DNA from: a virus
Length of the DNA stretch: 64,000 nucleotides
Reading direction: 5' to 3' (one strand)
IMG/VR virus record: IMGVR_UViG_3300025131_000013
Location: 1-64,000 of that record
Part shown: piece after piece, positions 1 to 31,261 of the stretch
Layout of the letters: each line of letters starts with the position of its first letter
Position numbering within the stretch: the stretch's first letter is position 1
Position numbers and translations under genes: made by a program
The notes under the pieces: model-generated
Database searches by the model: none
What the model was told of the DNA's origin: nothing
Seen by the model: only the letters and a program-made list of their open reading frames with translations

Positions 1-118
1 ACGAAGATGACGAAGATGACGAAGATGACGAAGATGACGAAGATGACGAAGATGATGACGATGACGATGACGAAGATGATGACGAAGATGATGACGAAGA
101 TGATGAGGATGAGGATGA
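1..118 (+). repeat. Coding (GAAGATGAC)n / GATGAC microsatellite encoding poly-Asp/Glu
   Basis: Directly visible tandem 9-mers and 3-mers. Confidence 0.9.
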
Positions 119-671: not shown

Positions 672-2042
672 ATGCCTAGACTAGTAATAATTGGCGGGGG
701 AATCTCGGGTGCCTCTATGTTCTACCATATGAGGATTAATTATCCTGAATGGGAAGTAGTCCTCCTTGAGCGGGGAGACAAGGTAGGAGGGATCAATCGT
801 AGTATTGAAGTAGAAGGGCTGAGATTTAGCCTGGGCAGTCGCTACATCTTCGCTATCGACGAGTATACTAACGACCTAGTGAACGGCCTTGCAAACAATG
901 AATGCGTTCGCGGACAATCGAATCATTCCGTGTTCTATAAGAAGCGTTATATAGAGTTTCCTGTACAATTGAATACCTCAGGTCTTTCAATCAGAGAACG
1001 GGCAGAGTGTCTCTGGAAGCTATGGTGGAGAAAGAAGTGGGATAGCGAGACTATGTGGTCCTTTGAAGACTGGGCTATTTGCAACTTCGGAGAGGCTATT
1101 GCCCGCAAGTTCATCTTGAGTCACGTAACGAAATGTTGGCGGACGGATCCAGGTGAGATTGACTATACCGGATCGGCCAAGAAGGTGATGGAACCAAGAG
1201 TAAGGGATATGGTCTGGGGAGCACTCAGGCGTCAGAAGTCTTTTAAGAATCAGGAGTTCCTGTATCCCAAAGGTGGGATTGGGACTATTGTGGATGAGAT
1301 GATAGAGCGCGGTCAATGTATTGACGACAATAAGGGATATGGCTCAGTCAGCACTAAGTTTATGGTTCACTCGGTAGATATGAGTGAGAGACTGGTTGCC
1401 TCTGAGGACGGGCAAGAGGTTCCGTATGACGCCATAGTTTCGACTATCCCGATGCCTGGGCTAGTAAACTTGATCGACAACTCCAATATTGGAGTCCCGC
1501 AATCAGTCATCCTTGCCGGGGACAAACTTAGATACAATTGTATGGCCTCGGTGATGCTGGTATTTGAAGGAGATATATTAGATGGGCGCCAAGAGCATTT
1601 CATTTACGTTCCTGGAAAAGAGTATTGGTTCTCCAGAGTTTCAATTCCGAGAAACTTTGATCCTACTTCCTGCCCAGAAGGGTATACCTCCCTCCTGGTT
1701 GAAATATGTTACAATAGGGAGCAGAAAGGATTGCTCTTTAGAAAAGACTACCAAACGGAGTTGGCTACGAAGGTGGCTAAAGAAGTAAATGATCTGTTCC
1801 CGAAGCTCGACCTGACTGCTAGGCTTAAGGGCTTTGCAGTAGGGGTTATTGACCCGGCCTATATCATAACGGATGAGAACTATAAGGAGTCCAGAGCGGA
1901 TTGTTTACGGTATCTAGCTCAGAACGACATCCATATGCTTGGCCGCTTTGGGAAGTGGGACTGGAGTAGGATTGAAGACACTATCCCTGAGTCGAGGGAT
2001 CTATCTCATCAAATCGGTGGGAGGCTGTGGCTAAATGAGTAA
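672..2042 (+). CDS. FAD-dependent oxidoreductase (UDP-galactopyranose mutase / protoporphyrinogen oxidase-like)
   Basis: N-terminal IIGGGISG..LLE...VGG dinucleotide motif, YPKGGIG, VSTIPM, C-terminal GRFGKWDW. Confidence 0.8.
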   Translation: MPRLVIIGGGISGASMFYHMRINYPEWEVVLLERGDKVGGINRSIEVEGLRFSLGSRYIFAIDEYTNDLVNGLANNECVRGQSNHSVFYKKRYIEFPVQLNTSGLSIRERAECLWKLWWRKKWDSETMWSFEDWAICNFGEAIARKFILSHVTKCWRTDPGEIDYTGSAKKVMEPRVRDMVWGALRRQKSFKNQEFLYPKGGIGTIVDEMIERGQCIDDNKGYGSVSTKFMVHSVDMSERLVASEDGQEVPYDAIVSTIPMPGLVNLIDNSNIGVPQSVILAGDKLRYNCMASVMLVFEGDILDGRQEHFIYVPGKEYWFSRVSIPRNFDPTSCPEGYTSLLVEICYNREQKGLLFRKDYQTELATKVAKEVNDLFPKLDLTARLKGFAVGVIDPAYIITDENYKESRADCLRYLAQNDIHMLGRFGKWDWSRIEDTIPESRDLSHQIGGRLWLNE

Positions 2043-2943
2043 GAGACTCCTGTATGTTGAGCGGGCTAAGAAGAATCTGAATGCCACACATCGCCTCAAA
2101 GGGTTTATCCAAGCAGGATGGGAACCCTATCTGATCGATATTGCGAATGTGCGTCCCGATATAATAATGAAGCAAGCCAAGATGTTAGACCCTCACGCCG
2201 TCTTTATATCGGTGGCCGCTTCCTCTTGTCTTGAGGAACTGGAAGCCTTGCTTCCAAAGGCGTATATCTTCCTGTTCTTGGGAGATATATATGGTCCTTC
2301 GTTCAGGTATGTTGCGTCTTTGGTCCCTCATTTTGATTGTCTGCTGGTAAGTAACAATGATACCAGAATTCACAATTACTTCTTGAGTCGAGGGGTGAAG
2401 AGGGTTGAGGAGCATCAATGTGCTACAGATACTATTCATTATAAGGACAATGGGACCGAGCCAGACAAGGATCTCGTTTTTGCCGGGAATGTAGTCAGGA
2501 GAACAAAGGACTATGCCTTCAGGCGAGAGATGGTTACAGAGTTGGTTGATAAGGGGGTCTTGGGTGCTTTCGGTGCAGGATGGAATGAGAGAGCCAGACC
2601 TTGTAGCCTACTTCAATACCCGAAGATGATGACCCGAGGCAAGATCCAGTTGGTGATTAACGGGTTTGGATTCCTGAGGAATTGTTACTCAAATAGAACT
2701 TGGAACGCCTTAGCTATGGGCCGGCCAGTCCTTCACTATAGGACGAGGAACGCTGAGAGGTATTTCCGCGATGGATTTGACTTAGCTTTCTTCTCAAGCC
2801 GGGACGAGCTGTATTTGAAGATGAGGTGGCTCTTGGATAATCCGGATGAGGCTAAGGCCATAGGGCAAAGGGGGCGTAGGTTGGTAGAGAAGTGGCATAC
2901 CTACAAGAACCGGGGCGAGGAACTGTTGGAGCTATTAGGATGA
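2035..2943 (+). CDS. CgeB-like glycosyltransferase (Glyco_trans_1_2)
   Basis: DLVFAGN, FGAGW, YSNRTWNALAMG, LLDNPDEAKAIGQRGR..V...HTY..R; clear paralog of 36113..37126. Confidence 0.8.
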   Translation: MSKRLLYVERAKKNLNATHRLKGFIQAGWEPYLIDIANVRPDIIMKQAKMLDPHAVFISVAASSCLEELEALLPKAYIFLFLGDIYGPSFRYVASLVPHFDCLLVSNNDTRIHNYFLSRGVKRVEEHQCATDTIHYKDNGTEPDKDLVFAGNVVRRTKDYAFRREMVTELVDKGVLGAFGAGWNERARPCSLLQYPKMMTRGKIQLVINGFGFLRNCYSNRTWNALAMGRPVLHYRTRNAERYFRDGFDLAFFSSRDELYLKMRWLLDNPDEAKAIGQRGRRLVEKWHTYKNRGEELLELLG

Positions 2944-3129
2944 AATGCTATTTGGACTCAAGAAGTTGGCCCCGTTTTCAAGTTACCCTGACTTCATTCC
3001 GAGAGAGGCTTTTGAGATACAACAAGTGATAGGATGGATTATCTAAGGGAGGATTTCAAAAAGAAGGTTTCCCAGCAGTGTCGAGTGAAGGCGTTTACTG
3101 AATTTTTTTTTAGAGAGTGGAGGAAAGCA

Positions 3130-3948
3130 ATGGCTGGTGAATCAATAGGACTCACAGCATCATCTTCAGAGCAGTCAACGGTTCCGATAACAAACTCACC
3201 GATAGTGAAGCTGGTGTCTCCGCCAGATTCCTTCGATTGTCTTACTCAGATCTCGACGATGTGGTTGGCGGCCCATCATGTCGATCCGATTGCGATCCAA
3301 AAGACGCTGACTATCGAACAGATGCGGTCTATGATTTGGGACGAGGTGATCCCGATTCCTGCTTGGCAGACGGTGTTGGAGTGTGTTCGGTTTACGTTTG
3401 TGATCCACAATATGAGCCGACCGGCGCAGCAGCAGTTGACCCGACAGAGGCTTGGAGTTGGCTTCAATAACAACTCCCTTCGGATCATCAAGCTTGAGAC
3501 GTTCGCGGACGATGACCGGTATCGGACGCCTCCTGGTTTGAATGAGGAACAGCACAATTTATACCACAGCGCCATAGATCGGTCGCAAGAGGACTATGAG
3601 GAGCTTCTTAAGGCAGGTGTGAGTCAAGAATCAGCCCGAGGTGTCCTTCCTCAGAATATCCACTCGCCTACGTTGACGATGTTCTCCGATCTGCGCGCCC
3701 TCCGAGGGTTCATCTCCAAGAGGCTTTGCTACGAGGCCCAGGATGAGATGAATGAATTTGCTGTATCCCTTAAGAGAGAAGTTGATGAGTGGGATCACTG
3801 GTTCGGTGGACTGCTTTCCTTCCCTTGCTCCCGAGATAAGGAGTGTGTGATTGGTCCAGGTGCCGCTGAACGTTGCCCGCTTCCGTATGAGTGGAAGGGT
3901 GGTGCCAATAAGGGTGTTGTTATTACTTCCCATAAGGAGATCAGGTGA
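3130..3948 (+). CDS. thyX: FAD-dependent thymidylate synthase ThyX-like (variant motif)
   Basis: LE.VRFTF.I..MSR..QQQLTRQR..GF...SLR, GVSQESARGVLP, LRALRGFISKRLC..AQDEM; start at 3130 chosen after a purine-rich SD. Confidence 0.8.
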   Translation: MAGESIGLTASSSEQSTVPITNSPIVKLVSPPDSFDCLTQISTMWLAAHHVDPIAIQKTLTIEQMRSMIWDEVIPIPAWQTVLECVRFTFVIHNMSRPAQQQLTRQRLGVGFNNNSLRIIKLETFADDDRYRTPPGLNEEQHNLYHSAIDRSQEDYEELLKAGVSQESARGVLPQNIHSPTLTMFSDLRALRGFISKRLCYEAQDEMNEFAVSLKREVDEWDHWFGGLLSFPCSRDKECVIGPGAAERCPLPYEWKGGANKGVVITSHKEIR

Positions 3949-4012
3949 TCTTAGGGATCGTAGGATTTTTGGCTTTCTTTAGTTTGACAGTTTACGAGAA
4001 TGGGAAATAGTC

Positions 4013-4321
4013 ATGGTACAGCAACGAGAAGGACGTATACTCACAGTTACCCCTGAGAATTACCAGCAGATTATGCTTGCCGTCTTAAGGACCAATAACG
4101 CTGGTAACCTCAAACTTCTTAGCATACGTGCTGGGGAAGCCGGCATTGCGGACCCGAAGGTAATAGACAAGTTGACTGATAATCAATGGATGGCGATGCT
4201 ACATAAGCTGAGGGCCGTTCATCCGGAGCTTACTGAGGATGAGCGTGAAAGTTCTAAGGAATGGTGCTTCAAGAACGGGGTCTATCCAGGAGGGAATAGT
4301 GAGTTCGACGAATCTGTCTAG
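4013..4321 (+). CDS. Hypothetical protein
   Basis: ORF track; tightly packed with neighbours. Confidence 0.6.
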   Translation: MVQQREGRILTVTPENYQQIMLAVLRTNNAGNLKLLSIRAGEAGIADPKVIDKLTDNQWMAMLHKLRAVHPELTEDERESSKEWCFKNGVYPGGNSEFDESV

Positions 4322-5135
4322 GCCAAAGATCACCCTCTCTTACCAAGGTGGGCTTAAGGGTAAATCCGGTCCCAACGGCCGCATCTCTGTAAGTAAAAGA
4401 CCTAAGAGGATAGCCCCAACAAAGCGGACCAAAGCGTCCCGTGTAACTGACTTCAATATTCATGTTAGGTCTACTTTACCGCAAGATGTTCCTCCCAGTC
4501 ATATCTGTAATGGCCCAACCTACAAGCGTTTATGTACAATATCTGCTGGGAAGGGGACAGATCATTCTGGGGTTGGTCGGTGTAAAACTCATGAATCCAG
4601 GACAAGCATGACAGTAAGAAAGCAAGCAGAAGGTTTGGAAGCAGTCAAGAGTAGATACGGGGGTGGTGCACCGACCAACCTCAAAAAAGCCTATGATGAG
4701 ATGCTTTCAGATAAGGGCTTGATGAGTGTAGATGAGGAGATGGCTGCCTCGAAAGCTATGCTCAAGGCTATTATGGAGAGTATAGGTGAGGTTGACTTCT
4801 CGTCAGATGAAGGAACGGATAAGGCTTTGAAGTTCTTGAAGGCGTTCAAGGACGTAACTACTCTCAACCTTAAATATCAGGAGATCCAGAGAAAGTCTGA
4901 TTTCATCATCACCCTTCCCCAGTTCATGAAGATAGTGAAACAAATCGGTGCTATTGTAACAGAGGAATTAGAAGCTGTTGATCCTGTAGTCAAGACCAAG
5001 CTGATGAGGCGGTTAATTGCAGAACTGGATATTACGGGCCAGTCAGCAATGGCCTCAGAAGGGGCTGTGGATGCCCCATTCGATGTGGAGGATGGTGATG
5101 AAGAGGAAGGAACACAGGAAGTTAAAGTGCTCTGA
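4299..5135 (+). CDS. Putative terminase small subunit-like protein (HGGxSTG-type Zn motif)
   Basis: C-x8-C..SAGKGTDHSGVGRCKTH motif followed by a helical body; GTG start inferred. Confidence 0.5.
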   Translation: MSSTNLSRPKITLSYQGGLKGKSGPNGRISVSKRPKRIAPTKRTKASRVTDFNIHVRSTLPQDVPPSHICNGPTYKRLCTISAGKGTDHSGVGRCKTHESRTSMTVRKQAEGLEAVKSRYGGGAPTNLKKAYDEMLSDKGLMSVDEEMAASKAMLKAIMESIGEVDFSSDEGTDKALKFLKAFKDVTTLNLKYQEIQRKSDFIITLPQFMKIVKQIGAIVTEELEAVDPVVKTKLMRRLIAELDITGQSAMASEGAVDAPFDVEDGDEEEGTQEVKVL

Positions 5136-11386: not shown

Positions 11387-11602
11387 ATGGTCGTAACGAT
11401 TGATAAGGAACGCCGAGCCAAAGGTGAGAAGCTATTCAACGAAGGATGGCGGATCGCCAGAACCTTCCGAGTCCCGAAGCAGGGACGCCATAAGGGGTGG
11501 GTTAAACTTAAGAAGCACGGAGCGGGTGGTATGCTCCAGATCCCGCCTGAAACCGCTGAGCGAATCAAGGAGCTTGAAGAAGATGAAGGTTCTGATTCTT
11601 GA
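11387..11602 (+). CDS. Hypothetical protein
   Basis: GGAGGT SD after a promoter copy. Confidence 0.65.
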   Translation: MVVTIDKERRAKGEKLFNEGWRIARTFRVPKQGRHKGWVKLKKHGAGGMLQIPPETAERIKELEEDEGSDS

Positions 11603-11954
11603 CGATAACATCGACGTAGCCTTGTCAGTCTCTCAGATGACTAAGGCTTGTCTTCCTGAAGCGGAGATCCTGGTGTTCTACGATTCGCTTGAGGCGTTAC
11701 GGAAGATGACCGGCGATATTGATATCTTTATCACCGACTTCGATATGCCGGGGTTGGACGGAGTAGCGATGGCGGTCAACGCTAAGACGATGAATAAGAA
11801 AACAGCGGTTGTGATGATTAGCGGATTGCCTCAGACAGAGATCGAGGATACTCCTCGACGGACAGAAGATTTTAGGTCAAGCGTCGATTGGTTTATTGCT
11901 AAGCCGGTCAACTTGGCGGACCTTCAACGGACGATTGGAGAGATAGTCGAGTGA
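11583..11954 (+). CDS. Stand-alone response regulator receiver (CheY-like)
   Basis: MKVLILDD, FITDFDMPGLDG (phospho-Asp), MISG, FIAKP. Confidence 0.85.
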   Translation: MKVLILDDNIDVALSVSQMTKACLPEAEILVFYDSLEALRKMTGDIDIFITDFDMPGLDGVAMAVNAKTMNKKTAVVMISGLPQTEIEDTPRRTEDFRSSVDWFIAKPVNLADLQRTIGEIVE

Positions 11955-17757: not shown

Positions 17758-18124
17758 GGGGGTTTTGATGCAGGCAATTCTCAGTGGTACCAATGGCTAA
17801 AAACATCTTTTCCCGTAGGGAGGAAACATAGCAACCAATGGGCAAAAAGAAATTCGGGATGAGAAATGATGGGAAGGAAAGAAAGGTCAGCCCTAAAGAA
17901 TGTGAGGTATGCTGAGGGAGGTGTAGGACTAAGGTGGATGACGTATACTTAATGCTATGTAGCGTATATCGTCCTATATGTAGGAGTGCGTCTATGGCGT
18001 AGGGTTACGGACTATGACTGGATGTGGTATGATGACGACTGTAATATGATCTGCCTAGTCTTTACTGCTGTAGTTATGCTCGTGGGGTGGTTAGGACTAG
18101 AGTGCCTTATGTTCCTCTCCCACT

Positions 18125-18199
18125 CTCCCCGCTGAATCCTCTCATTATCAATCTAGCTCCCCGCTGAATCCTCTCATTATCAATCTAGCTCCCCGCTGA
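18125..18199. repeat. Perfect 32-bp tandem repeat (2.3 copies)
   Basis: CTCCCCGCTGAATCCTCTCATTATCAATCTAG twice, then CTCCCCGCTGA. Confidence 0.95.
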
Positions 18200-18229
18200 T
18201 GTGAGACACCGCTCGACTTCCCTCCTGGC

Positions 18230-18478
18230 ACTCAGTCACACACCCACACTGGGTTGATTGGATGATTGGCACGATGCCCAGCTGGCTGTGTTTTCAGTCA
18301 ACCGGCAGTAATCACAATTGACGTGCCTTATCAGCACCAAACCGCACCAAACAGGACTGGCCATTCAGTCAACCAGGCAAGTTTGGGTTGCTGAATGGTG
18401 AATTTAACCATCCAGTCAACCATGCAAGTCTGGGTTGTTGAATGTTGAATGGTGGATGCTGCTGGTTGTTGGTTGGGT
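18230..18478. repeat. CA/TG-rich block 1 with CAGTCAAC motifs and an imperfect 47-bp tandem duplication
   Basis: CAGTCAAC at 18295, 18366 and 18413; the last two start near-identical units. Confidence 0.8.
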
Positions 18479-18491
18479 CCGGCCCGGATGT

Positions 18492-18530
18492 GGAAAGGGG
18501 GTCGACCTTGGAGCTGGCCGACCCCCTTCC
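18492..18530 (-). terminator. Hairpin at the 3' end of the minus-strand gene
   Basis: GGAA(A)GGGGGTCG/CGACCCCCTTCC. Confidence 0.55.
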
Positions 18531-18532
18531 TG

Positions 18533-18862
18533 CTAGTTCTGCTTCTTCTCCCGTGGCTTACCGGGAGCTACCGCCACATAGTTCCCGTTCTCCAATCGGG
18601 TAACTACCACCCGCCTCTTCGCACGGACGACGAAATTGGCGTAGAATAGCGGGTTGGCGATACCCGCCTCGGTCAGCTTTTCGAGCCAATCGACCTTACT
18701 GATTCCCGTTTTTCCCGCGTCCTGGAGAATCTGCCAGGCTCGGTTGCGACCCTCGCTGCGCTTAAACGGTGATCGCGCGTTGTGGTACGGGAGTGCGGAA
18801 CTGCCGAGACTCTCAGCGAGACTCGGAACGACCTGCGGCTGCTTCTTACTCTGGGTGCCCAT
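18533..18862 (-). CDS. Putative winged-helix nucleoid-like protein, minimal form (paralog C)
   Basis: RNRAWQILQDAGKTGISKVDW...RRVVV...GNYVAVAP; GAGGAG SD before MGTQ. Confidence 0.8.
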   Translation of the reverse strand: MGTQSKKQPQVVPSLAESLGSSALPYHNARSPFKRSEGRNRAWQILQDAGKTGISKVDWLEKLTEAGIANPLFYANFVVRAKRRVVVTRLENGNYVAVAPGKPREKKQN

Positions 18863-18910
18863 ATCGGACTCCTCATTTTTAGGTCTGAGGCCTATCCCCG
18901 ACCTGCATTT

Positions 18911-18939
18911 AATATAACGGATTCGCACTGAGATTCCTA
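18911..18939 (-). promoter_or_regulatory. Conserved early promoter copy (TAGGAA-N17-TATATT), minus strand
   Basis: Reverse complement matches the motif; upstream of paralog C. Confidence 0.75.
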
Positions 18940-18972
18940 ATGAAATCTTCGCTTTCAGCGAAAAAAGTTTCG

Positions 18973-19157
18973 CTGGATGATGCCCGATATATCAGAGATT
19001 TCAGTCAACGGGTGGCGTGGGCTGTGGTGTGCGGTGTTGTTGTATAGGGATTTCAGTCAACGCCGGGCGCTGATGTTGCGCGCGGTGTTGTATAGGCATC
19101 AAGCTGCACCAACGCGCCCCGGACATATGCTTGATGGTGGCTGATGGTGGCTGGTGG
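18973..19157. repeat. CA/TG-rich block 2 between two divergent promoters
   Basis: GATTTCAGTCAACG at ~18997 and ~19049, GCGGTGTTG..TATAGG twice, TGATGGTGGC repeats. Confidence 0.75.
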
Positions 19158-19179
19158 AAAAAAAAAGTTTCTGTTGGGC

Positions 19180-19208
19180 TAGGATTCCAGTTGTCGATTC
19201 GCTATCTT
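19180..19208 (+). promoter_or_regulatory. Conserved early promoter copy (TAGGAT-N17-TATCTT)
   Basis: Motif match with an upstream A-tract. Confidence 0.8.
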
Positions 19209-19251
19209 TAAATAGGTAGAGAATCCGCTCTACCTAAACGAAGGGAACGAG

Positions 19252-19458
19252 ATGGATATCCCTATTCTTAGGGGGATCGTAAAGTCCAGCGTATTAGAGC
19301 TAGACGGTTGCGTTAACGAATACGGAGTAGAGGTTGATGTATGCTCCGGAGGCGGCCCCAACGCGGGAGGCGTTACGATCCAGCTTCGGATTCCAGATCG
19401 AGACGAAATCTCGATTAGACTTCAGAACGACGGAATCTTCACGGTAGTCGAACTCTAA
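19252..19458 (+). CDS. Small early protein
   Basis: Follows a promoter copy; followed by a UUCG hairpin. Confidence 0.65.
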   Translation: MDIPILRGIVKSSVLELDGCVNEYGVEVDVCSGGGPNAGGVTIQLRIPDRDEISIRLQNDGIFTVVEL

Positions 19459-19465
19459 CCTCAAC

Positions 19466-19487
19466 GGGCGGGACTTCGGTCCCGCCC
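19466..19487 (+). other. GC-rich cUUCGg hairpin
   Basis: GGGCGGGAC-TTCG-GTCCCGCCC. Confidence 0.7.
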
Positions 19488-19505
19488 AACGAAAGCGAGG
19501 GCGAT

Positions 19506-19760
19506 ATGGTGGATGGAGTAAAGGAAATGTTCGAGGGACTTTGCGGGTTTCTAAACGAGGTTACTGAAGGATGGTTCCTTGATATTAATCCTGTGTCGCC
19601 GATAACCGGGACTGTGACCCTTATCCCGAACGGAGAGGGATGGGTTGAGATGGTGATTTCAGTCGAAGGTAAGGAGTTTTCGGTGAAGGTGGACGCCTAC
19701 GGAAAGACCGGATGTGAGTATGGAGATCCTTCCCCCGAACGTAATTGCTTTGGAGGATAG
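19506..19760 (+). CDS. Small early protein
   Basis: GAGG SD; ORF track. Confidence 0.6.
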   Translation: MVDGVKEMFEGLCGFLNEVTEGWFLDINPVSPITGTVTLIPNGEGWVEMVISVEGKEFSVKVDAYGKTGCEYGDPSPERNCFGG

Positions 19761-19770
19761 GACGAGGAAG

Positions 19771-19948
19771 AACGATCCGTTGACTGGGATATTACTTATT
19801 CAGTCAACGGATCGTTGTTCGAGCTGGTAGGTATTGCTGGCTGCTGCTGGTTGCTGGTTGGCTTTCAGCCAGTCAGTCAGCTTCCAGTCAGTCAGCCAGT
19901 CAGCTTTCAGTCAGTCAGTCAGAAATCACAACCGGCATAGGGTAAGCA
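19771..19948. repeat. CA/TG-rich block 3: 16-bp inverted repeat, then (G/T)CTG and (CAGT)n tracts
   Basis: AACGATCCGTTGACTG (19771-86) / CAGTCAACGGATCGTT (19801-16); TG-rich 19824-19860 followed by CAGT repeats 19866-19921. Confidence 0.85.
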
Positions 19949-19966
19949 CGTTAGAAAAACTAAGTC

Positions 19967-20000
19967 CTACTACTTAGCCTTAAGCGATACTAAGTAGTAG
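19967..20000 (+). repeat. 34-bp palindromic site L (11-12-11)
   Basis: CTACTACTTAG-CCTTAAGCGATA-CTAAGTAGTAG. Confidence 0.85.
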
Positions 20001-20187
20001 TGGGAAAAATCTACCGGAAGAAAATTCTTAAGAAAAAGATTAGTTTCGCTTAAGGGAAAAATCTTCCTCTACGAAAATTATAAGACGTTCTACTACTTTT
20101 CCGCTTAAAGCGAAATCTATACCTAAAAGCGAAAAAAAGGCGAAAAAAGACGAGAAAATTTTTTTTACGAAAAGCGAAAAAAAACGC

Positions 20188-20216
20188 TAGACTCGACTAG
20201 TTTAATACCCTATACT
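20188..20216 (+). promoter_or_regulatory. sigma70-like promoter TAGACT-N17-TATACT free of CA/TG
   Basis: Near-consensus boxes, 17-nt spacer, upstream A-tracts. Confidence 0.7.
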
Positions 20217-20429
20217 TAGACCTACGAACCCTAACGAAAGGAAACGAAGAAAAGAGTAAAAAGAGTAGACTCTAGGCGAAGCGGGAACTTAGGCTTTCGC
20301 CCTTACTACCTAGAGTCCTACCGCCGGATTATCGGGATAACCCTTAAATATCCGGCTTAAAAGGTTCCTAGCTTACCGTAAAAAGCTAGACTCGATTTAT
20401 TTTTTTTTACTTCTCTTTAGGAGAAAAAA

Positions 20430-20978
20430 ATGTCTCTCGATATTACCCCCGTAGAGGCCGCCGTAGAGGTCCCCGTAGTCGGAGACTCTAAGGACGCCGG
20501 GATATACGCCTATAACCTTTTCGAAGTCGCCCGGATCGCCGTAGCGCGGCGTCCTAAAGACGCGAAAAAGGTTAAGGTAGGAACCGAAGATCGAGGCGGT
20601 TATACTAGTCCCGATCGATACGCGTCCTTCCGGCTCGCGTTTTCCCTCTCTCTAACGAATTCCGAAGCTAAACGGGTAGCTATCGTAGCGCGCTTCTCCG
20701 AGACGTTAAAGATTCGGAAACGGATCGTAGACGCCGGAATTCCCGTAGGGAAGGGTTATACCTATAAGGAACTCGCGTCTACCGCCGCCGCTCTACGCTA
20801 CGGCGAAAAGTACTCCGGGTTCGTAGCGTTTCGACCTAACGGTACTCGATTCGCCGTAGCGGAAAAAAACGAGCGTTTCTTTCTTTACGTAGTAAACGCG
20901 AACGGAGAGGTTTTCCCTAACCTTCCCGAATCGCTTAAGGTTAAGGAGGTCGAGGGGGAGCTAATAAAGGTAGAGTAA
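20430..20978 (+). CDS. 182-aa protein encoded without CA/TG dinucleotides (no Cys, His, Gln, Trp or internal Met)
   Basis: AGGAG SD, own promoter and terminator; composition is visible in the translation. Confidence 0.85.
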   Translation: MSLDITPVEAAVEVPVVGDSKDAGIYAYNLFEVARIAVARRPKDAKKVKVGTEDRGGYTSPDRYASFRLAFSLSLTNSEAKRVAIVARFSETLKIRKRIVDAGIPVGKGYTYKELASTAAALRYGEKYSGFVAFRPNGTRFAVAEKNERFFLYVVNANGEVFPNLPESLKVKEVEGELIKVE

Positions 20979-20987
20979 TAAATTCGA

Positions 20988-21021
20988 CTCCCGGTCCTAA
21001 CGGACCGGGGGTTTTTTTTTT
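20988..21021 (+). terminator. Intrinsic terminator
   Basis: CCCGGTCC-TAAC-GGACCGGG followed by T10. Confidence 0.9.
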
Positions 21022-21046
21022 AGCCTATAGGGAAGTTCCTTCCCTT

Positions 21047-21080
21047 CGACTACTTAGTATCGCTTAAGGTTAAGTAGAAC
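21047..21080 (-). repeat. 34-bp site R, inverted copy of site L
   Basis: CGACTACTTAG-TATCGCTTAAGG-TTAAGTAGAAC is 30/34 identical to the reverse complement of 19967..20000. Confidence 0.85.
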
Positions 21081-21290
21081 TAAGCAGAACGGGGTAGGGG
21101 TTAAACGCTAATTTCTTAGCTTTTAACGTCTCAATTGGTCTGCTTACATACACGTGCAATTTTTTGGTGAAATTTGCTTCAGGAGGGTGTTAGTGAGTAG
21201 CGAGGAATAAGAGGGCCACAGCACACCCAACGGTGACGATTACCGAACCTGGCGATTCAGCAATGATGGCGATTAGCGCGTTTAGGAGTT

Positions 21291-21548
21291 TCATAAGTCA
21301 ACATACTTTCCGATGCCAACTCTGCAAGGAGGCATCATAGGGTTGATTTTGAGCTCAAGCTGTTCGAACACTTCGTAGGCTTGAGCGTGGTTGGCCATGA
21401 GGAAGGAGACTATCTCAAGATCGGGGGTGATCTCTCTGAAGACCTCCTCAGATGGGGCCATAGCCTCAGTTGGCTTCTTACCGTGCTCCCGCATCTGTTC
21501 GATTAGGAGTATGAGTTTGTGGAGTGTAGCGCGGTTGTTTGGGGTCAT
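21291..21548 (-). CDS. Hypothetical protein
   Basis: Coupled (ATGA overlap) to 21545..22000. Confidence 0.6.
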   Translation of the reverse strand: MTPNNRATLHKLILLIEQMREHGKKPTEAMAPSEEVFREITPDLEIVSFLMANHAQAYEVFEQLELKINPMMPPCRVGIGKYVDL

Positions 21549-22000
21549 AGGTCTACCTTGCTGTCATCCTTTATAGCGAATAGTCCTGCTGGCTTTGGAT
21601 TTCTGAGTCGAGTGACTAACTGGACGCTATTGCCAGTGTAATAACCTCCCTGACTGATGTCGACAAATATATCTCTGTCTTCCTCATCAGTCCGGGTATG
21701 GAATCTTTTGTTTCTATTTGGGCGATGATAGTCAGGAGTGAGGCTTATCCTAAGTCCACCCTTCTCTTCGCCGGCATCCCCACTGGATGTATCTTCAATA
21801 CACCACTCTGAGCCATTGTTGAGAGTGATATAGAACTTTCGACGATTCTTGGCGAATCGCTTTTTCTTGTCCTCTTGAGGCGGCTTGATGCGTCTCCTCG
21901 GGGGATTCCGACTATTGTAATGTTCACGTCTGTTCTTTTCTTCAATGCTTTCTTTGCGGTCACCTCTAACCATATCCCAAATCTTCATCTTGTTCTCCAT
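21545..22000 (-). CDS. Basic hypothetical protein
   Basis: ORF track. Confidence 0.6.
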   Translation of the reverse strand: MENKMKIWDMVRGDRKESIEEKNRREHYNSRNPPRRRIKPPQEDKKKRFAKNRRKFYITLNNGSEWCIEDTSSGDAGEEKGGLRISLTPDYHRPNRNKRFHTRTDEEDRDIFVDISQGGYYTGNSVQLVTRLRNPKPAGLFAIKDDSKVDL

Positions 22001-22252
22001 TGAGGGTTCAAAGACTTTTTTTAGTAATTAGCTATACCATGCTGACGTCTGATGAATAGTGAAGGCCAGAGCTTTTCCAAGCCCTGGCCTTCTCAGGAGG
22101 TCCATATAGCCACGGCATTAGTCGCTTCATCCCGTAACTAAAATAAGTATACAAAGTTGTAGCTCGTGTAACGATCCGGGTCAGTCCGATGTATATTTTG
22201 TTGACGAGAACAAACCATCCAATGCTTTTAAAAAGTAGGAGAAATAATTAAG

Positions 22253-22804: not shown

Positions 22805-24622
22805 ATGTCTAGTTTGACCCACAAAAAAAAGAAAAGAAACAAAAAGACTGATCCTGGGGCTTTGCTTCGGGGTGAGCTTTCCAAGCACTTTGGCCTAGAT
22901 GTTGATGAGAGAGCAAACCTTGGATCGGAAAGCGAGGCTAAACAGTTCTTAGAAGAGCAAGATGAGATTTGGGATGAATATCCGGTGACATCAAGTATCT
23001 TCTTTGAGGATTGGATTCGAGAAAAGATGTACCCAATCCAACAGGAGCTGTGCGATGCCGTGCTGGGTGTACTTCCTACAGAGTGGCCTAACGACTTTGA
23101 GGAGGCATTTGCCTTATGGGGTAAGGGGTCAGGTAAGGATAGAACGTCTGCTAAGATGTGTGTCTATCAAGGATACCGGCTGATGTGTATGAGAGACCCT
23201 CACGCCTTCTTTAAGCAGAGCCAGATAGACATCGCCAATATGTCGAGGAATTCTCGACAGGCCAAGAAGGTTTATTTCAATAACCTCAAGGAGGTGGTCC
23301 GAAGATGTTTTGATCCCGCTACCAAGAAGAATTGGTTTGAGGAGCGGGGTGTTGATCTTCGGGAGCAGAAAGATATTCAGTCCGCCGAGATCCGTTTATG
23401 TGGGGCTCACAACGAAGCCCACCATATAGAGCAGGATATAACCTGTCATTCTTTGGATTCAGAGCAGAATACGGGTGAGGGCTTTAACCTGTTCTTCTCG
23501 GTCTTGGATGAGCTTGGAGACTTTGCTGTAGGTAATGGAATAGAGCTTCACGAGGCTATCACAGAAACAACAGTCTCCCGGTATGAGGGTTATGGTAAGG
23601 TAATTGCGATCTCGTTCATGTATAATAAGAGCGACCCATTCCAAATTATCTGGGCTCAGACTAAGGGTGATCCAAAGGTCTTCCAATCTGGACCCCACGC
23701 TACATGGGATGTGAATCTTGGAAGATCAAAAACTTCATTCTCCAGACACTACAAGCGCAATCCTATTCGTGCGCGTAGAGTTTATGAATGCAAAGTGGAT
23801 GATAAACGTTCAGGACTTATCAAGCTCAGATCGGTGGTGGAAAGGATTTTTAATAACGGTGATGTCCTCAATCCCGTTGCCGGTGGTTCTCCTGTCGTCG
23901 GATATTATCCTGAGATTATATCATCACCTGAGACTGTGAAGGCCTTGAGGTTTACGGAGCATTTCAAGCCTAAATCTTCCGCGTGCTATACGGTCCATAT
24001 TGATCTTGCTAAGGGTAAGGCCAAAGGTGACTCCGTAGGATTCTGTATGGCTCACCCGGAGAGAATGAAAGGCTATATAGATGAGGGGATGAAGAAGCTC
24101 TGGGTTCAGATGGGGAATGCTGTCGATACTGAGGAGGAAGTATCCAAAGGCGTAGTGTTCGATCTTATGCTAGGTATAAGGGGAGCAGACGCGACTCAGG
24201 AAGTCCGGTTGGCCGAGATTCGACAACTCATCTATCGTCTCAAGTTTGAGATGAGCTTTAATATCATCAAGGTTACAATGGATGGCTACCAATCAGCTGA
24301 TACGATACAGGAGTTAAATGAAAGGGGAATCCCAACCGAACTGTTATCGGTAGATAGAACTCCAGACCCTTACGAATCTCTTGTTGATTTAGCTTACCAG
24401 GGGCTTGCAAAGGCTTACCCTCATGTTGTTGCCCTAAGAGAGCTAGATGAGGTCGACAATGATGGTAAAACAGGCAAAATCGACCATCCTGCCCTGTCTC
24501 TTGTCCGAATGGCAGAGGAAGGGTTTGAAAAAGGTAGCAAAGATGTTTCGGACGCTATGGCGGGGGCCAGTTATACGTGTATTAGGGACATTCCACTTGA
24601 TTCGGGTGTCTTCTTTGGATAA
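22805..24622 (+). CDS. terL: Terminase large subunit
   Basis: Walker A WGKGSGKD, Walker B SVLDE, nuclease motifs HIDLA, MDGYQS, KIDHP...SKDVSDA. Confidence 0.92.
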   Translation: MSSLTHKKKKRNKKTDPGALLRGELSKHFGLDVDERANLGSESEAKQFLEEQDEIWDEYPVTSSIFFEDWIREKMYPIQQELCDAVLGVLPTEWPNDFEEAFALWGKGSGKDRTSAKMCVYQGYRLMCMRDPHAFFKQSQIDIANMSRNSRQAKKVYFNNLKEVVRRCFDPATKKNWFEERGVDLREQKDIQSAEIRLCGAHNEAHHIEQDITCHSLDSEQNTGEGFNLFFSVLDELGDFAVGNGIELHEAITETTVSRYEGYGKVIAISFMYNKSDPFQIIWAQTKGDPKVFQSGPHATWDVNLGRSKTSFSRHYKRNPIRARRVYECKVDDKRSGLIKLRSVVERIFNNGDVLNPVAGGSPVVGYYPEIISSPETVKALRFTEHFKPKSSACYTVHIDLAKGKAKGDSVGFCMAHPERMKGYIDEGMKKLWVQMGNAVDTEEEVSKGVVFDLMLGIRGADATQEVRLAEIRQLIYRLKFEMSFNIIKVTMDGYQSADTIQELNERGIPTELLSVDRTPDPYESLVDLAYQGLAKAYPHVVALRELDEVDNDGKTGKIDHPALSLVRMAEEGFEKGSKDVSDAMAGASYTCIRDIPLDSGVFFG

Positions 24623-31204: not shown

Positions 31205-31261
31205 CCCCGCATTTGTGTAGTTTTCGTCGTTAAGAGTAACGCCTAATCAGGAGTCAAGATT

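What the first reader, a model, noticed from the sequence alone, without database searches (positions are those of the whole stretch)
18230..19948. CA/TG-rich repeat blocks (CAGTCAAC, CAGT arrays) alternate with CA/TG-poor mini-operons
Three non-coding blocks (about 18230-18478, 18973-19157, 19771-19948) are packed with the dinucleotide that the adjacent cassette lacks. By hand I count about 25 CA/TG in 19801-19921 but only about 13 in 19201-19500. CAGTCAAC occurs at 18295, 18366, 18413, 19002, 19054 and 19801, and inverted at 19779 within a 16-bp inverted repeat. Block 3 switches from TG-rich to CA-rich, allowing fold-back. Inference: these are deliberate target arrays, such as decoys for a CA/TG-reading protein, heavily modified barriers, or injection-pause signals analogous in role to the T5 injection-stop signal.
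Basis: partly seen in the sequence, partly recalled or inferred. Interest (0 to 1): 0.78.

Follow-up and report, generated by a model that had tools for sequence, protein, structure and literature searches.

The report
Polar CA/TG-rich spacers between early cassettes
Three non-coding spacers in a novel 93-kb phage carry a one-strand-only 8-base word (YCAGTCAR) and about twice the normal CA/TG content. Related phages have them too, next to a gene cassette stripped of every CA/TG, so they look like selected DNA signals whose reader is still unknown.

Summary

The blocks are non-coding spacers between small units, each with its own promoter, gene(s) and terminator. They lie in a gene-poor stretch 2.4-5 kb upstream of the terminase gene. 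Three relatives (L001, L009, L010) have blocks in the same places. Their sequence cannot be aligned, but they share the word YCAGTCAR, with 32 copies on the + strand and 2 on the - strand. They are also CA/TG-rich and TA-poor, even after the word is masked.

The word keeps its strand although the winged-helix gene cassette between blocks 1 and 2 is inverted in this phage. Block 3 abuts a zone with almost no CA/TG, and L001 has 1,597 bp with none.

Only block 3 folds, and Rfam finds nothing. The blocks hold no DnaA boxes, and the genome has no known DNA-modification gene.

My best reading is that these are polar protein-binding arrays that frame the early cassettes (confidence 0.35). This scan has not noted the same thing on other DNA.

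The parts
18125..18199 (+). Perfect 32-bp tandem repeat (2.3 copies) just upstream of block 1. L001 has the related words AATCTAG and CCCCGCTGA at the matching place.
18200..18480 (+). Block 1, the genome-wide CA/TG maximum. It holds CAGTCA words at 18233, 18295, 18366 and 18413, a CACCCACAC run, a 10-bp repeat at 18334-18352 and a 47-bp unit in two copies at 18361-18450. A G/T-rich tail runs from 18450 to 18478.
   Evidence: partial alignment with L001 and L009
18495..18528 (.). G+C-rich hairpin with 13-nt arms, directly after the stop codon of the minus-strand gene. It is probably that gene's terminator.
   Evidence: (I10)
18533..18862 (-). Gene for a 109-aa basic winged-helix-like protein (family A1). 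Its cassette is inverted here relative to L001, L009 and L010.
18911..18939 (-). Promoter of the TAGGnn-N17-TAnnnT family that drives the inverted winged-helix gene.
18985..19165 (+). Block 2. It holds a 52-bp unit in two copies (18994-19099), each headed by TTTCAGTCAAC and followed by a G/T-rich run. Three GNTGGTGG octamers in tandem lie at 19133-19157, one of them GCTGGTGG, followed by an A9 tract.
19180..19208 (+). Promoter of the same family, driving the two small genes.
19252..19760 (+). Two small genes, 19252-19458 (68 aa) and 19506-19760 (84 aa). The first is CA/TG-poor at 0.053.
19767..19820 (.). Block 3, hairpin 1. It has 20-nt arms, each holding CAGTCAAC (one copy inverted), and lies directly after the stop codon of the second small gene.
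19823..19922 (.). Block 3, hairpin 2. A TG-rich arm (19825-19861) pairs with a CA-rich arm. A (CAGT)n array with nine overlapping CAGTCA words spans 19865-19922.
19949..21084 (+). Context: the CA/TG-free zone that block 3 abuts. It contains an AT-rich repeat region, the promoter TAGACT-N17-TATACT at 20188-20216, a 182-aa gene at 20430-20978 whose product has no Cys, His, Gln or Trp and no Met apart from the start codon, and a terminator at 20986-21023.

Best explanation
The blocks are cis-acting, strand-polar DNA arrays that form the fixed framework of the phage's early control region. Each spacer lies between the terminator of one unit (promoter, gene(s), terminator) and the promoter of the next. 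It starts with one or more copies of YCAGTCAR on the + strand and continues as CA/TG-rich, TA-poor DNA, partly in 10-bp register. I infer that they work as multivalent binding sites for a DNA-binding protein. The candidate is the 109-aa winged-helix protein encoded between blocks 1 and 2 in all four phages. Binding would insulate or time the early transcription units, or hold this stretch of DNA relative to a directional process such as entry, replication or packaging. Shown: position, polarity, conservation of kind, absence of coding and of conserved folding. Inferred: that a protein binds, which protein, and what follows from binding.
For: (1) The blocks are non-coding and sit between a terminator and the next promoter in the window, L001, L009 and L010. 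(2) CAGTCA on the + strand: 15 of the genome's 47 copies lie in 652 bp of blocks, against 1 of 30 - strand copies. In L001 the figures are 9 of 12 (+) and 1 of 7 (-), in L009 5 of 5 (+) and in L010 3 of 3 (+). The information is confined to YCAGTCAR. (3) BLAST does not align the blocks between genomes, and coding DNA here is only 66-72% identical, yet the word, its strand and the composition persist. That pattern suits short protein-read words and does not suit RNA genes. (4) The winged-helix cassette is inverted in the window while blocks 1 and 2 keep their polarity. The blocks therefore belong to the genome framework and not to a cassette. (5) The gene between blocks 1 and 2 models as helix-helix-helix-strand-strand, with core pLDDT 77-90, and the top Foldseek rows are mostly winged-helix DNA binders. 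(6) Ten-base-pair periodic sub-repeats lie at 18334-18352, 19132-19157 and 19835-19856.
Against: No binding has been shown. The Foldseek matches of the winged-helix model are all weak (E > 0.1). Spacing of the word is irregular (23-71 bp), and its distance to the next promoter varies from about 23 to 62 bp, so this is not a classical operator or activator geometry. Six other promoters of the same family work without any block upstream. The hypothesis alone does not explain why CA/TG stays high after the word is masked (0.14-0.23 against 0.12) or why block 3 abuts a CA/TG-free zone. Only four related loci exist, two of them under 2 kb.
Confidence: 0.35

Rival explanations
1. CA/TG-target arrays. 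Some activity acts at the CA:TG step: a base modifier, a frequent-cutting or nicking nuclease, or a step-reading binder. The neighbouring cassette has purged every site to escape it. The blocks are deliberately dense in sites and act as sinks, barriers or nucleation points.
For: The zone 19949-21084 holds 3 CA/TG against about 135 expected. L001:3255-4852 holds none in 1,597 bp, whereas the longest gap elsewhere in either sequence is 42 bp. The purge reaches the -35 box (TAGACT) and, in L001, the start codon. Distant homologues of the encoded protein also lack Cys, His, Gln and Trp. Block 3 touches the zone in both genomes. The pyrimidine-purine steps are partitioned: in the blocks CA/TG is 0.19-0.20 and TA 0.026-0.036, while in the zone CA/TG is 0-0.002, TA 0.09-0.10 and CG 0.09-0.12. 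The enrichment survives masking of the CAGTCA word.
Against: No N6/N4, C5 or Dam-type methyltransferase, no DpdA and no other known DNA-modifying gene was found. The rest of the genome has normal CA/TG (observed/expected 0.97), so it would need separate protection. Blocks 2 and 3 are only 1.4-1.6 times enriched, and in block 3 the excess is almost all (CAGT)n. The best-conserved feature is a specific polar 8-mer, which a reader of the symmetric CA:TG step would not require.
Confidence: 0.2
2. Cis elements of a fixed genome end, such as a terminal-repeat boundary, a packaging site, an entry-pause site or an origin. This would be analogous in role to the untranslated repeat regions of the T5 left terminal repeat.
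For: The region is the only break in an otherwise uninterrupted + strand gene string. It is gene-poor and holds small early-type cassettes. T5 likewise has three conserved untranslated repeat regions between pre-early genes (bioRxiv 10.1101/866236). The nearest cultured TerL relatives (26-28% identity) are Streptomyces BE1 phages, which have direct terminal repeats of about 11 kb (PMC5764925). Polarity fits a directional process. An AT-rich repeat region follows at 19949-20190.
Against: The contig and L001 read straight through the region, and IMG/VR found no end repeats. The window holds one match to the DnaA-box consensus (at 31261) and none in the blocks. The blocks lie 2.4-5 kb upstream of the terminase gene here and 6-8 kb upstream in L001, so they are not next to it. 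No initiator gene is nearby, the repeats have only an 8-bp core and their spacing is irregular. The cumulative GC skew shows no turn here.
Confidence: 0.15
3. The G/T-rich halves are Chi-like sites that attenuate RecBCD/AddAB when it enters from a double-strand end to the right of the blocks.
For: GNTGGTGG occurs 19 times in the window against 6.8 +/- 2.9 expected, 16 of them on the + strand. Three stand in tandem at 19133-19157, including the E. coli octamer GCTGGTGG. Copies also lie in the blocks of L001, L009 and L010. Polarity is intrinsic to Chi (own knowledge).
Against: The host and its Chi sequence are unknown, since RecA is about 50% identical to that of many phyla. The + strand is G-rich and several hits are Gly-Gly codons, so the bias is partly compositional. 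Chi does not explain YCAGTCAR or the CA-rich parts. The phage has its own RecA and SbcCD-like genes.
Confidence: 0.08
4. Repeat-prone spacer DNA with no function of its own. It would be REP-like or recombination debris left by the shuffling of early cassettes.
For: Cassette content and orientation differ among the four phages while the promoters and blocks stay. The local tandem duplications of 32, 47 and 52 bp look recent.
Against: A word that is about 46-fold concentrated, on one strand only and retained in four phages whose spacers no longer align, is hard to obtain without selection.
Confidence: 0.1
5. The blocks are transcribed as structured small RNAs, or they act as terminators.
For: Block 3 forms two strong hairpins directly after a stop codon (z -7 to -8). 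It may well end the two-gene transcript.
Against: The hairpins have no U tract. Blocks 1 and 2 and all six relative blocks tested fold no better than shuffled sequence (z between +0.8 and -2.7). Rfam gives nothing but a chance miRNA row.
Confidence: 0.07

Closest known systems
Untranslated repeat regions 1-3 of the phage T5 left terminal repeat, including the injection stop signal (bioRxiv 10.1101/866236)
   Same: Both have three non-coding, repeat-laden blocks interspersed with small early genes. In both, the blocks are retained among relatives whose neighbouring genes vary. The function is unproven in both.
   Different: The T5 blocks are conserved in sequence and in the order of their repeats, and they carry eight paired DnaA boxes. 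Here only an 8-mer and the composition are conserved, and the blocks hold no DnaA boxes. No terminal repeat and no two-step entry has been shown. T5 has no reported dinucleotide-free gene next to its blocks.
Early-gene cassette regions of large lytic phages: the SPO1 host-takeover module and the T4 promoter-plus-stem-loop cassettes (own knowledge, not checked in a paper here)
   Same: Both contain many small genes, each with its own strong conserved promoter and terminator, and the cassettes are shuffled between relatives.
   Different: Those systems are defined by the promoter and terminator themselves. Here an extra polar, CA/TG-rich spacer lies between the terminator and the next promoter.
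Chi and other polar octamers (Chi for RecBCD, KOPS for FtsK)
   Same: They are short, strand-polar and over-represented words, and GNTGGTGG occurs inside the blocks.
   Different: Chi and KOPS are spread over a whole genome. YCAGTCAR is concentrated in about 1.7 kb. The host's Chi is unknown.
Iterons of plasmid and phage origins
   Same: They are direct repeats on one strand next to an AT-rich stretch, read by winged-helix proteins.
   Different: Iterons are 17-22 bp long, regularly spaced and lie next to a rep gene. Here the core is 8 bp, the spacing is irregular and the nearby winged-helix protein has a single 109-aa domain.

Membership tests
T5-type injection stop signal / LTR repeat regions | Paired DnaA boxes (TTWTNCACA) inside the repeats | tested here: not met
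   The window holds one match, at 31261, and none in 17.7-20 kb.
T5-type injection stop signal / LTR repeat regions | [quoted passage not shown] | tested here: not met
   The blocks are not alignable by BLAST. Only words such as YCAGTCAR, CACCCACAC and TGATT recur.
T5-type injection stop signal / LTR repeat regions | Location at the inner edge of a long terminal repeat, with DNA entry pausing there | not testable with these tools
   No reads or coverage are available. IMG/VR reports no end repeats. TerL relatives with 11-kb terminal repeats are only a lead.
Chi sites | The octamer recognised by the host's RecBCD/AddAB | not testable with these tools
   The host is unknown.
Chi sites | Over-representation with strand bias | tested here: inconclusive
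   GNTGGTGG occurs 19 times against 6.8 expected, 16 on + and 3 on -. The result is confounded by the G-rich coding strand and by Gly-Gly codons.
Iteron-type origin | Regularly spaced direct repeats of 17-22 bp beside an initiator gene and an AT-rich unwinding element | tested here: not met
   The core is only 8 bp and the spacings are 71, 47 and 52 bp and irregular. No Rep-like gene is present. An AT-rich stretch is present at 19949-20190.
Structured non-coding RNA | A fold better than shuffled sequence that is conserved in relatives, or a match to a curated family | tested here: not met
   Only block 3 of the window folds (z -7 to -8). The other blocks give z between +0.8 and -2.7. Rfam has no hit.
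Intrinsic terminator (block 3 hairpins only) | A G+C-rich hairpin followed by a U tract | tested here: not met
   The hairpins are strong but no T run follows, and the terminator scan does not list them.
Integron attC / cassette recombination sites | An integron integrase gene and RYYYAAC...GTTRRRY core sites at cassette ends | tested here: not met
   No integrase turned up in any family scan. AGTCAAC matches RYYYAAC at only 6 of 7 positions. The 47-bp unit is shorter than known attC sites (own knowledge).
Sites of phage-encoded DNA modification | A DNA methyltransferase, transglycosylase or hypermodification gene in the genome | tested here: not met
   PF01555, PF00145, PF02086 and PF01702 are all absent. 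Only ThyX, a generic class I methyltransferase and several glycosyltransferases are present. An unknown enzyme cannot be excluded.

The most novel reading that the evidence does not exclude
This phage lineage uses the CA:TG base-pair step as a one-dinucleotide code. An as yet unidentified activity acts at every CA/TG. It could be a new DNA modification, a very frequent nicking or cutting enzyme, or a step-reading DNA coat. A 'pioneer' cassette has purged all sites, giving up five amino acids and, in one relative, even its ATG start. The spacers next to it are built as dense, polar site arrays that act as barriers, sinks or nucleation points and gate what happens to the DNA beyond them.
Probability: 0.2. 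Interest if true: 0.9.

Novelty: new variant of a known kind. Interest (0 to 1): 0.6.

Why it matters
Untranslated repeat blocks in phage early regions, T5 being the classic case, have resisted explanation for decades. Here the blocks come with two unusually clean handles: a strictly polar 8-mer, and a composition that is the mirror image of an adjacent zone from which the same dinucleotide has been removed completely. If the two are linked, the pair points to a DNA-reading activity with dinucleotide specificity that no known family in this genome accounts for. It also offers a simple experimental system, in which CA/TG sites can be added or removed. Even under the conservative reading, the locus defines a new cis element and a candidate winged-helix partner in a phage lineage with almost no annotated genes.

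Tried and rejected
- DNA similarity to 50,697 cultured phage genomes gave no match. tblastn of the zone protein and of a distant homologue against the same set also gave no match.
- Pfam and PHROGs gave no informative match for the genes in and around the region: no hit for any gene in the region, only unnamed PHROG families for a flanking gene, and a weak PHROG terminase match for the 605-aa ORF.
- Seven IMG/VR scans and one metagenome scan returned only one long relative contig (reached as L001, L007, L011, L094 and L095) and two short ones, L009 and L010.
The DNA around the distant homologues P0015-P0031 could therefore not be fetched, which left the key test of linkage between zone and blocks undone.
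- The host could not be identified from RecA, which is about 50% identical to that of many phyla.
- A structured-RNA reading is rejected for all blocks except block 3.
- DnaA boxes: rejected, none in the blocks.
- An inverted repeat flanking the inverted cassette: none found.
- Sigma-70-type promoters made from the GTTGACT complement of the word: the spacing to any -10 box does not fit (by eye; none listed).
- LexA, pho-box, sigma-54 and sigma-E readings of the word were considered from memory. The geometry does not fit any of them.
- Fold searches gave only weak winged-helix rows for the 109-aa protein, nothing for the zone protein, and nothing useful from the protein atlas.
- Rho-utilisation sites were considered. 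Over 18-20 kb the region is less G-skewed than the genome, and in block 3 the C-rich arm would be paired.
Full report
**Setting.** The window is the first 64 kb of a single 93,475-bp virus contig, which CheckV rates 100% complete and in which IMG/VR finds no end repeats. Its two ends meet inside an acidic-repeat ORF, so the break is an assembly cut. Almost all genes lie on the + strand. The large terminase gene is at 22805-24622, followed by the portal, protease and tail genes. A replication module fills 66-93 kb, with SNF2, DnaB, Pol III alpha, a UDG-family protein, RecA, SbcCD-like proteins and a primase. The finding lies in the only gene-poor stretch, 17760-22250. The genome has no DNA match among cultured phages, and most of its proteins have no family.

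**Observation.**
- Block 1 (18230-18478) has 60 CA/TG against about 30 expected. It is the maximum of the whole genome, where no other window of that length exceeds 46.
- Block 2 has 37 against 22-24 expected, a count that only 0.02% of genome windows reach.
- Block 3 has 31 against 21-22 expected, a count that 0.9% of windows reach.
- Seven of the ten CAGTCAAC copies in the window lie here, against 1.7 expected for the whole window.
- Repeats of 32, 47 and 52 bp, several 10-bp sub-repeats and a (CAGT)n array are present.
- The inverted repeat has 20-nt arms, longer than the 16 bp reported. Block 3 folds into two hairpins (z -7 to -8).

The alternation with low-CA/TG genes is visible in 100-bp bins. 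It is strong only for 19252-19458 and, dramatically, for the next cassette, 19949-21084, which has 3 CA/TG where about 135 are expected.

**Anatomy.** Each block is a spacer between autonomous transcription units. The units carry a conserved promoter, TAGGnnnYCAGNTGnnGATTCGYTACCTTTAAGTAG, preceded by an A-rich upstream element. About nine copies of this promoter occur in the genome. The order here is:
1. the end of the long + strand gene string;
2. a small membrane ORF;
3. the 32-bp repeats;
4. block 1;
5. terminator, winged-helix gene and promoter, all on the - strand;
6. block 2;
7. promoter and two small genes;
8. block 3;
9. the CA/TG-free zone, with its own sigma-70-like promoter TAGACT-N17-TATACT.

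**Relatives.** One 44.8-kb IMG/VR contig (L001, TerL 82% identical) and two short metagenome contigs (L009, L010) carry the same layout. Coding DNA is only 66-72% identical between L001 and the window, and the blocks do not align by BLAST. A forced alignment of block 1 shows only islands such as CACCCACACAYCCACAC and TGATT. Three properties persist nonetheless.

1. The word. In the window's genome, 15 of 47 + strand CAGTCA copies lie in 652 bp of blocks, against 1 of 30 - strand copies. In L001 the figures are 9 of 12 (+) and 1 of 7 (-), in L009 5 of 5 (+) and in L010 3 of 3 (+). The information is confined to YCAGTCAR.
2. The composition. After masking the word, CA/TG density is still 0.14-0.23 in all ten blocks against 0.12 for the genome. 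TA falls to 0.012-0.026 in the three block-1 equivalents against 0.058 for the genome.
3. The position. The blocks lie after a terminator and before the next promoter, at a variable distance from it.

**Polarity.** In L001, L009 and L010 the winged-helix gene points the same way as its neighbours and as the word. In the window the whole cassette (promoter, gene, terminator) is inverted, yet blocks 1 and 2 keep the word on the + strand. The blocks are therefore framework elements whose orientation is tied to the genome and not to the adjacent gene.

**The neighbour.** L001 has 1,597 bp (3255-4852) with no CA/TG at all, while the longest such gap elsewhere in either sequence is 42 bp. The zone encodes a conserved protein, 47% identical between the two phages. 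In L001 its reading frame has no ATG, GTG or TTG anywhere. An in-frame ATT at L001:4056 follows AAGGGGA at the right distance. A profile search found single-domain homologues at 26-35% identity. Together they hold 0-2 Cys, no His, 0-1 Gln and no Trp. The purge is therefore old and strongly selected. Block 3 touches the zone in both genomes. Total pyrimidine-purine steps are similar everywhere (0.19-0.27) but are partitioned. In the blocks CA/TG is 0.19-0.20 and TA 0.026-0.036. In the zone CA/TG is about 0, TA 0.09-0.10 and CG 0.09-0.12.

**What the blocks are not.**
- They are not coding: no ORF exceeds 55 aa and none is conserved.
- They are not a known RNA family, and apart from block 3 they are not structured.
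- The blocks hold no DnaA boxes; the window's only match to the consensus lies at 31261.
- They do not fit an iteron origin or an attC array.
- They are not demonstrably modified. No DNA methyltransferase of the three main families and no DpdA is present. The family scans otherwise show only ThyX, a generic methyltransferase and glycosyltransferases.

**Best explanation (0.35).** The blocks are polar, multivalent protein-binding arrays that frame the early cassettes. The candidate reader is the 109-aa protein encoded between blocks 1 and 2 in all four phages. Its model is a three-helix, two-strand winged helix with core pLDDT 77-90. The top structural neighbours are mostly winged-helix DNA binders, although all matches are weak. 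The shown facts are position, polarity, conservation of kind, and absence of coding or of a conserved fold. Binding and its consequence are inferred. This reading does not explain the word-independent CA/TG excess or the contact with the purged zone.

**Rivals.**
It lacks any identified reader or modifier and does not need a polar 8-mer.
- A genome-end or entry-pause role (0.15) fits the T5 precedent of three untranslated repeat regions among pre-early genes (10.1101/866236). It also fits the nearest cultured TerL relatives, which have 11-kb terminal repeats. No end has been shown, and the blocks hold none of the DnaA boxes that are the hallmark of the T5 signal.
- A Chi-like role for the G/T-rich halves (0.08) rests on GNTGGTGG, which occurs 19 times against 6.8 expected, 16 of them on the + strand, with three in tandem at 19133-19157. 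The host is unknown.
- Functionless repeat debris (0.1) is hard to square with a one-strand word kept in four diverged phages.
- A terminator or RNA role (0.07) is plausible only for the block 3 hairpins.

**Verdict.** The blocks are real, selected, polar cis elements of a new kind within a known class, the untranslated repeat blocks of phage early regions. Their reader and their link to the CA/TG-free cassette remain open and are directly testable. The earlier notes on this genome (e1-6033918, -919, -922, -925) were checked here and hold. The scan has no note of the same thing on other DNA.

Noticed in passing
L001:3255-4852 (gene about 4056-4712): The homologue of the 182-aa zone protein lies in 1,597 bp with no CA/TG, so its frame has no ATG, GTG or TTG at all. 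An in-frame ATT at 4056 follows AAGGGGA at the right distance. Gene callers will miss such genes.
   Followed up: partly
proteins P0015, P0016, P0017, P0022, P0031: Distant homologues (26-35% identity) of the zone protein also have almost no Cys, His, Gln or Trp, and few internal Met. They have acidic and Lys-rich N-terminal tails. The dinucleotide purge therefore seems to be a family-wide trait.
   Followed up: partly
window 18480-18975 versus L001:1860-2355: The whole winged-helix cassette (promoter, gene, terminator) is inverted in the window relative to three relatives. No flanking inverted repeat is detectable.
   Followed up: partly
window, whole; 19133-19157: GNTGGTGG, which includes the E. 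coli Chi octamer, occurs 19 times against 6.8 expected, 16 of them on the + strand. Three copies stand in tandem in block 2.
   Followed up: partly
window 5365, 7405, 10300, 11315, 14641, 15595, 19180 (+), 18939 (-); L001:2535; L010:122, 1227: A promoter family about 38 bp long, with an invariant CAGNTG-like spacer element, GATTCG, and TACCTTTAAGTAG. From the spacer TG there is a recurrent 38-bp stretch free of CA/TG. The conserved leader GAAGTCAAACCCGAAGGAAGGAG is shared with relatives.
   Followed up: partly
window, whole (e.g. 5934, 9438, 22755, 28281, 45231, 48067): CTTAAGG occurs 32 times against 8.5 expected, often as the palindrome CCTTAAGG. It also recurs in the non-coding part of the CA/TG-free zone of the window and of L001.
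   Followed up: no
window 22805-24622: The large terminase has no Pfam hit and no relative in the PDB. Its nearest cultured relatives (26-28% identity) are Streptomyces BE1, Gordonia and Microbacterium phages. The BE1 phages have direct terminal repeats of about 11 kb.
   Followed up: partly
window 672-3948: A cluster of three genes lies at the head of the small-gene region: an FAD/NAD-binding amine-oxidase-like (possibly Glf-like) protein, a glycosyltransferase and a long ThyX (304 aa). I did not check whether this ThyX is a canonical dTMP synthase.
   Followed up: no
window 1-118 and genome 93300-93475: The contig ends meet inside an ORF made of acidic 9-bp repeats, so the assembly was cut in a tandem repeat. 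The genome map is circular or terminally redundant.
   Followed up: no
window 11400-11954: A phage-encoded response-regulator receiver domain protein with no recognisable output domain.
   Followed up: no
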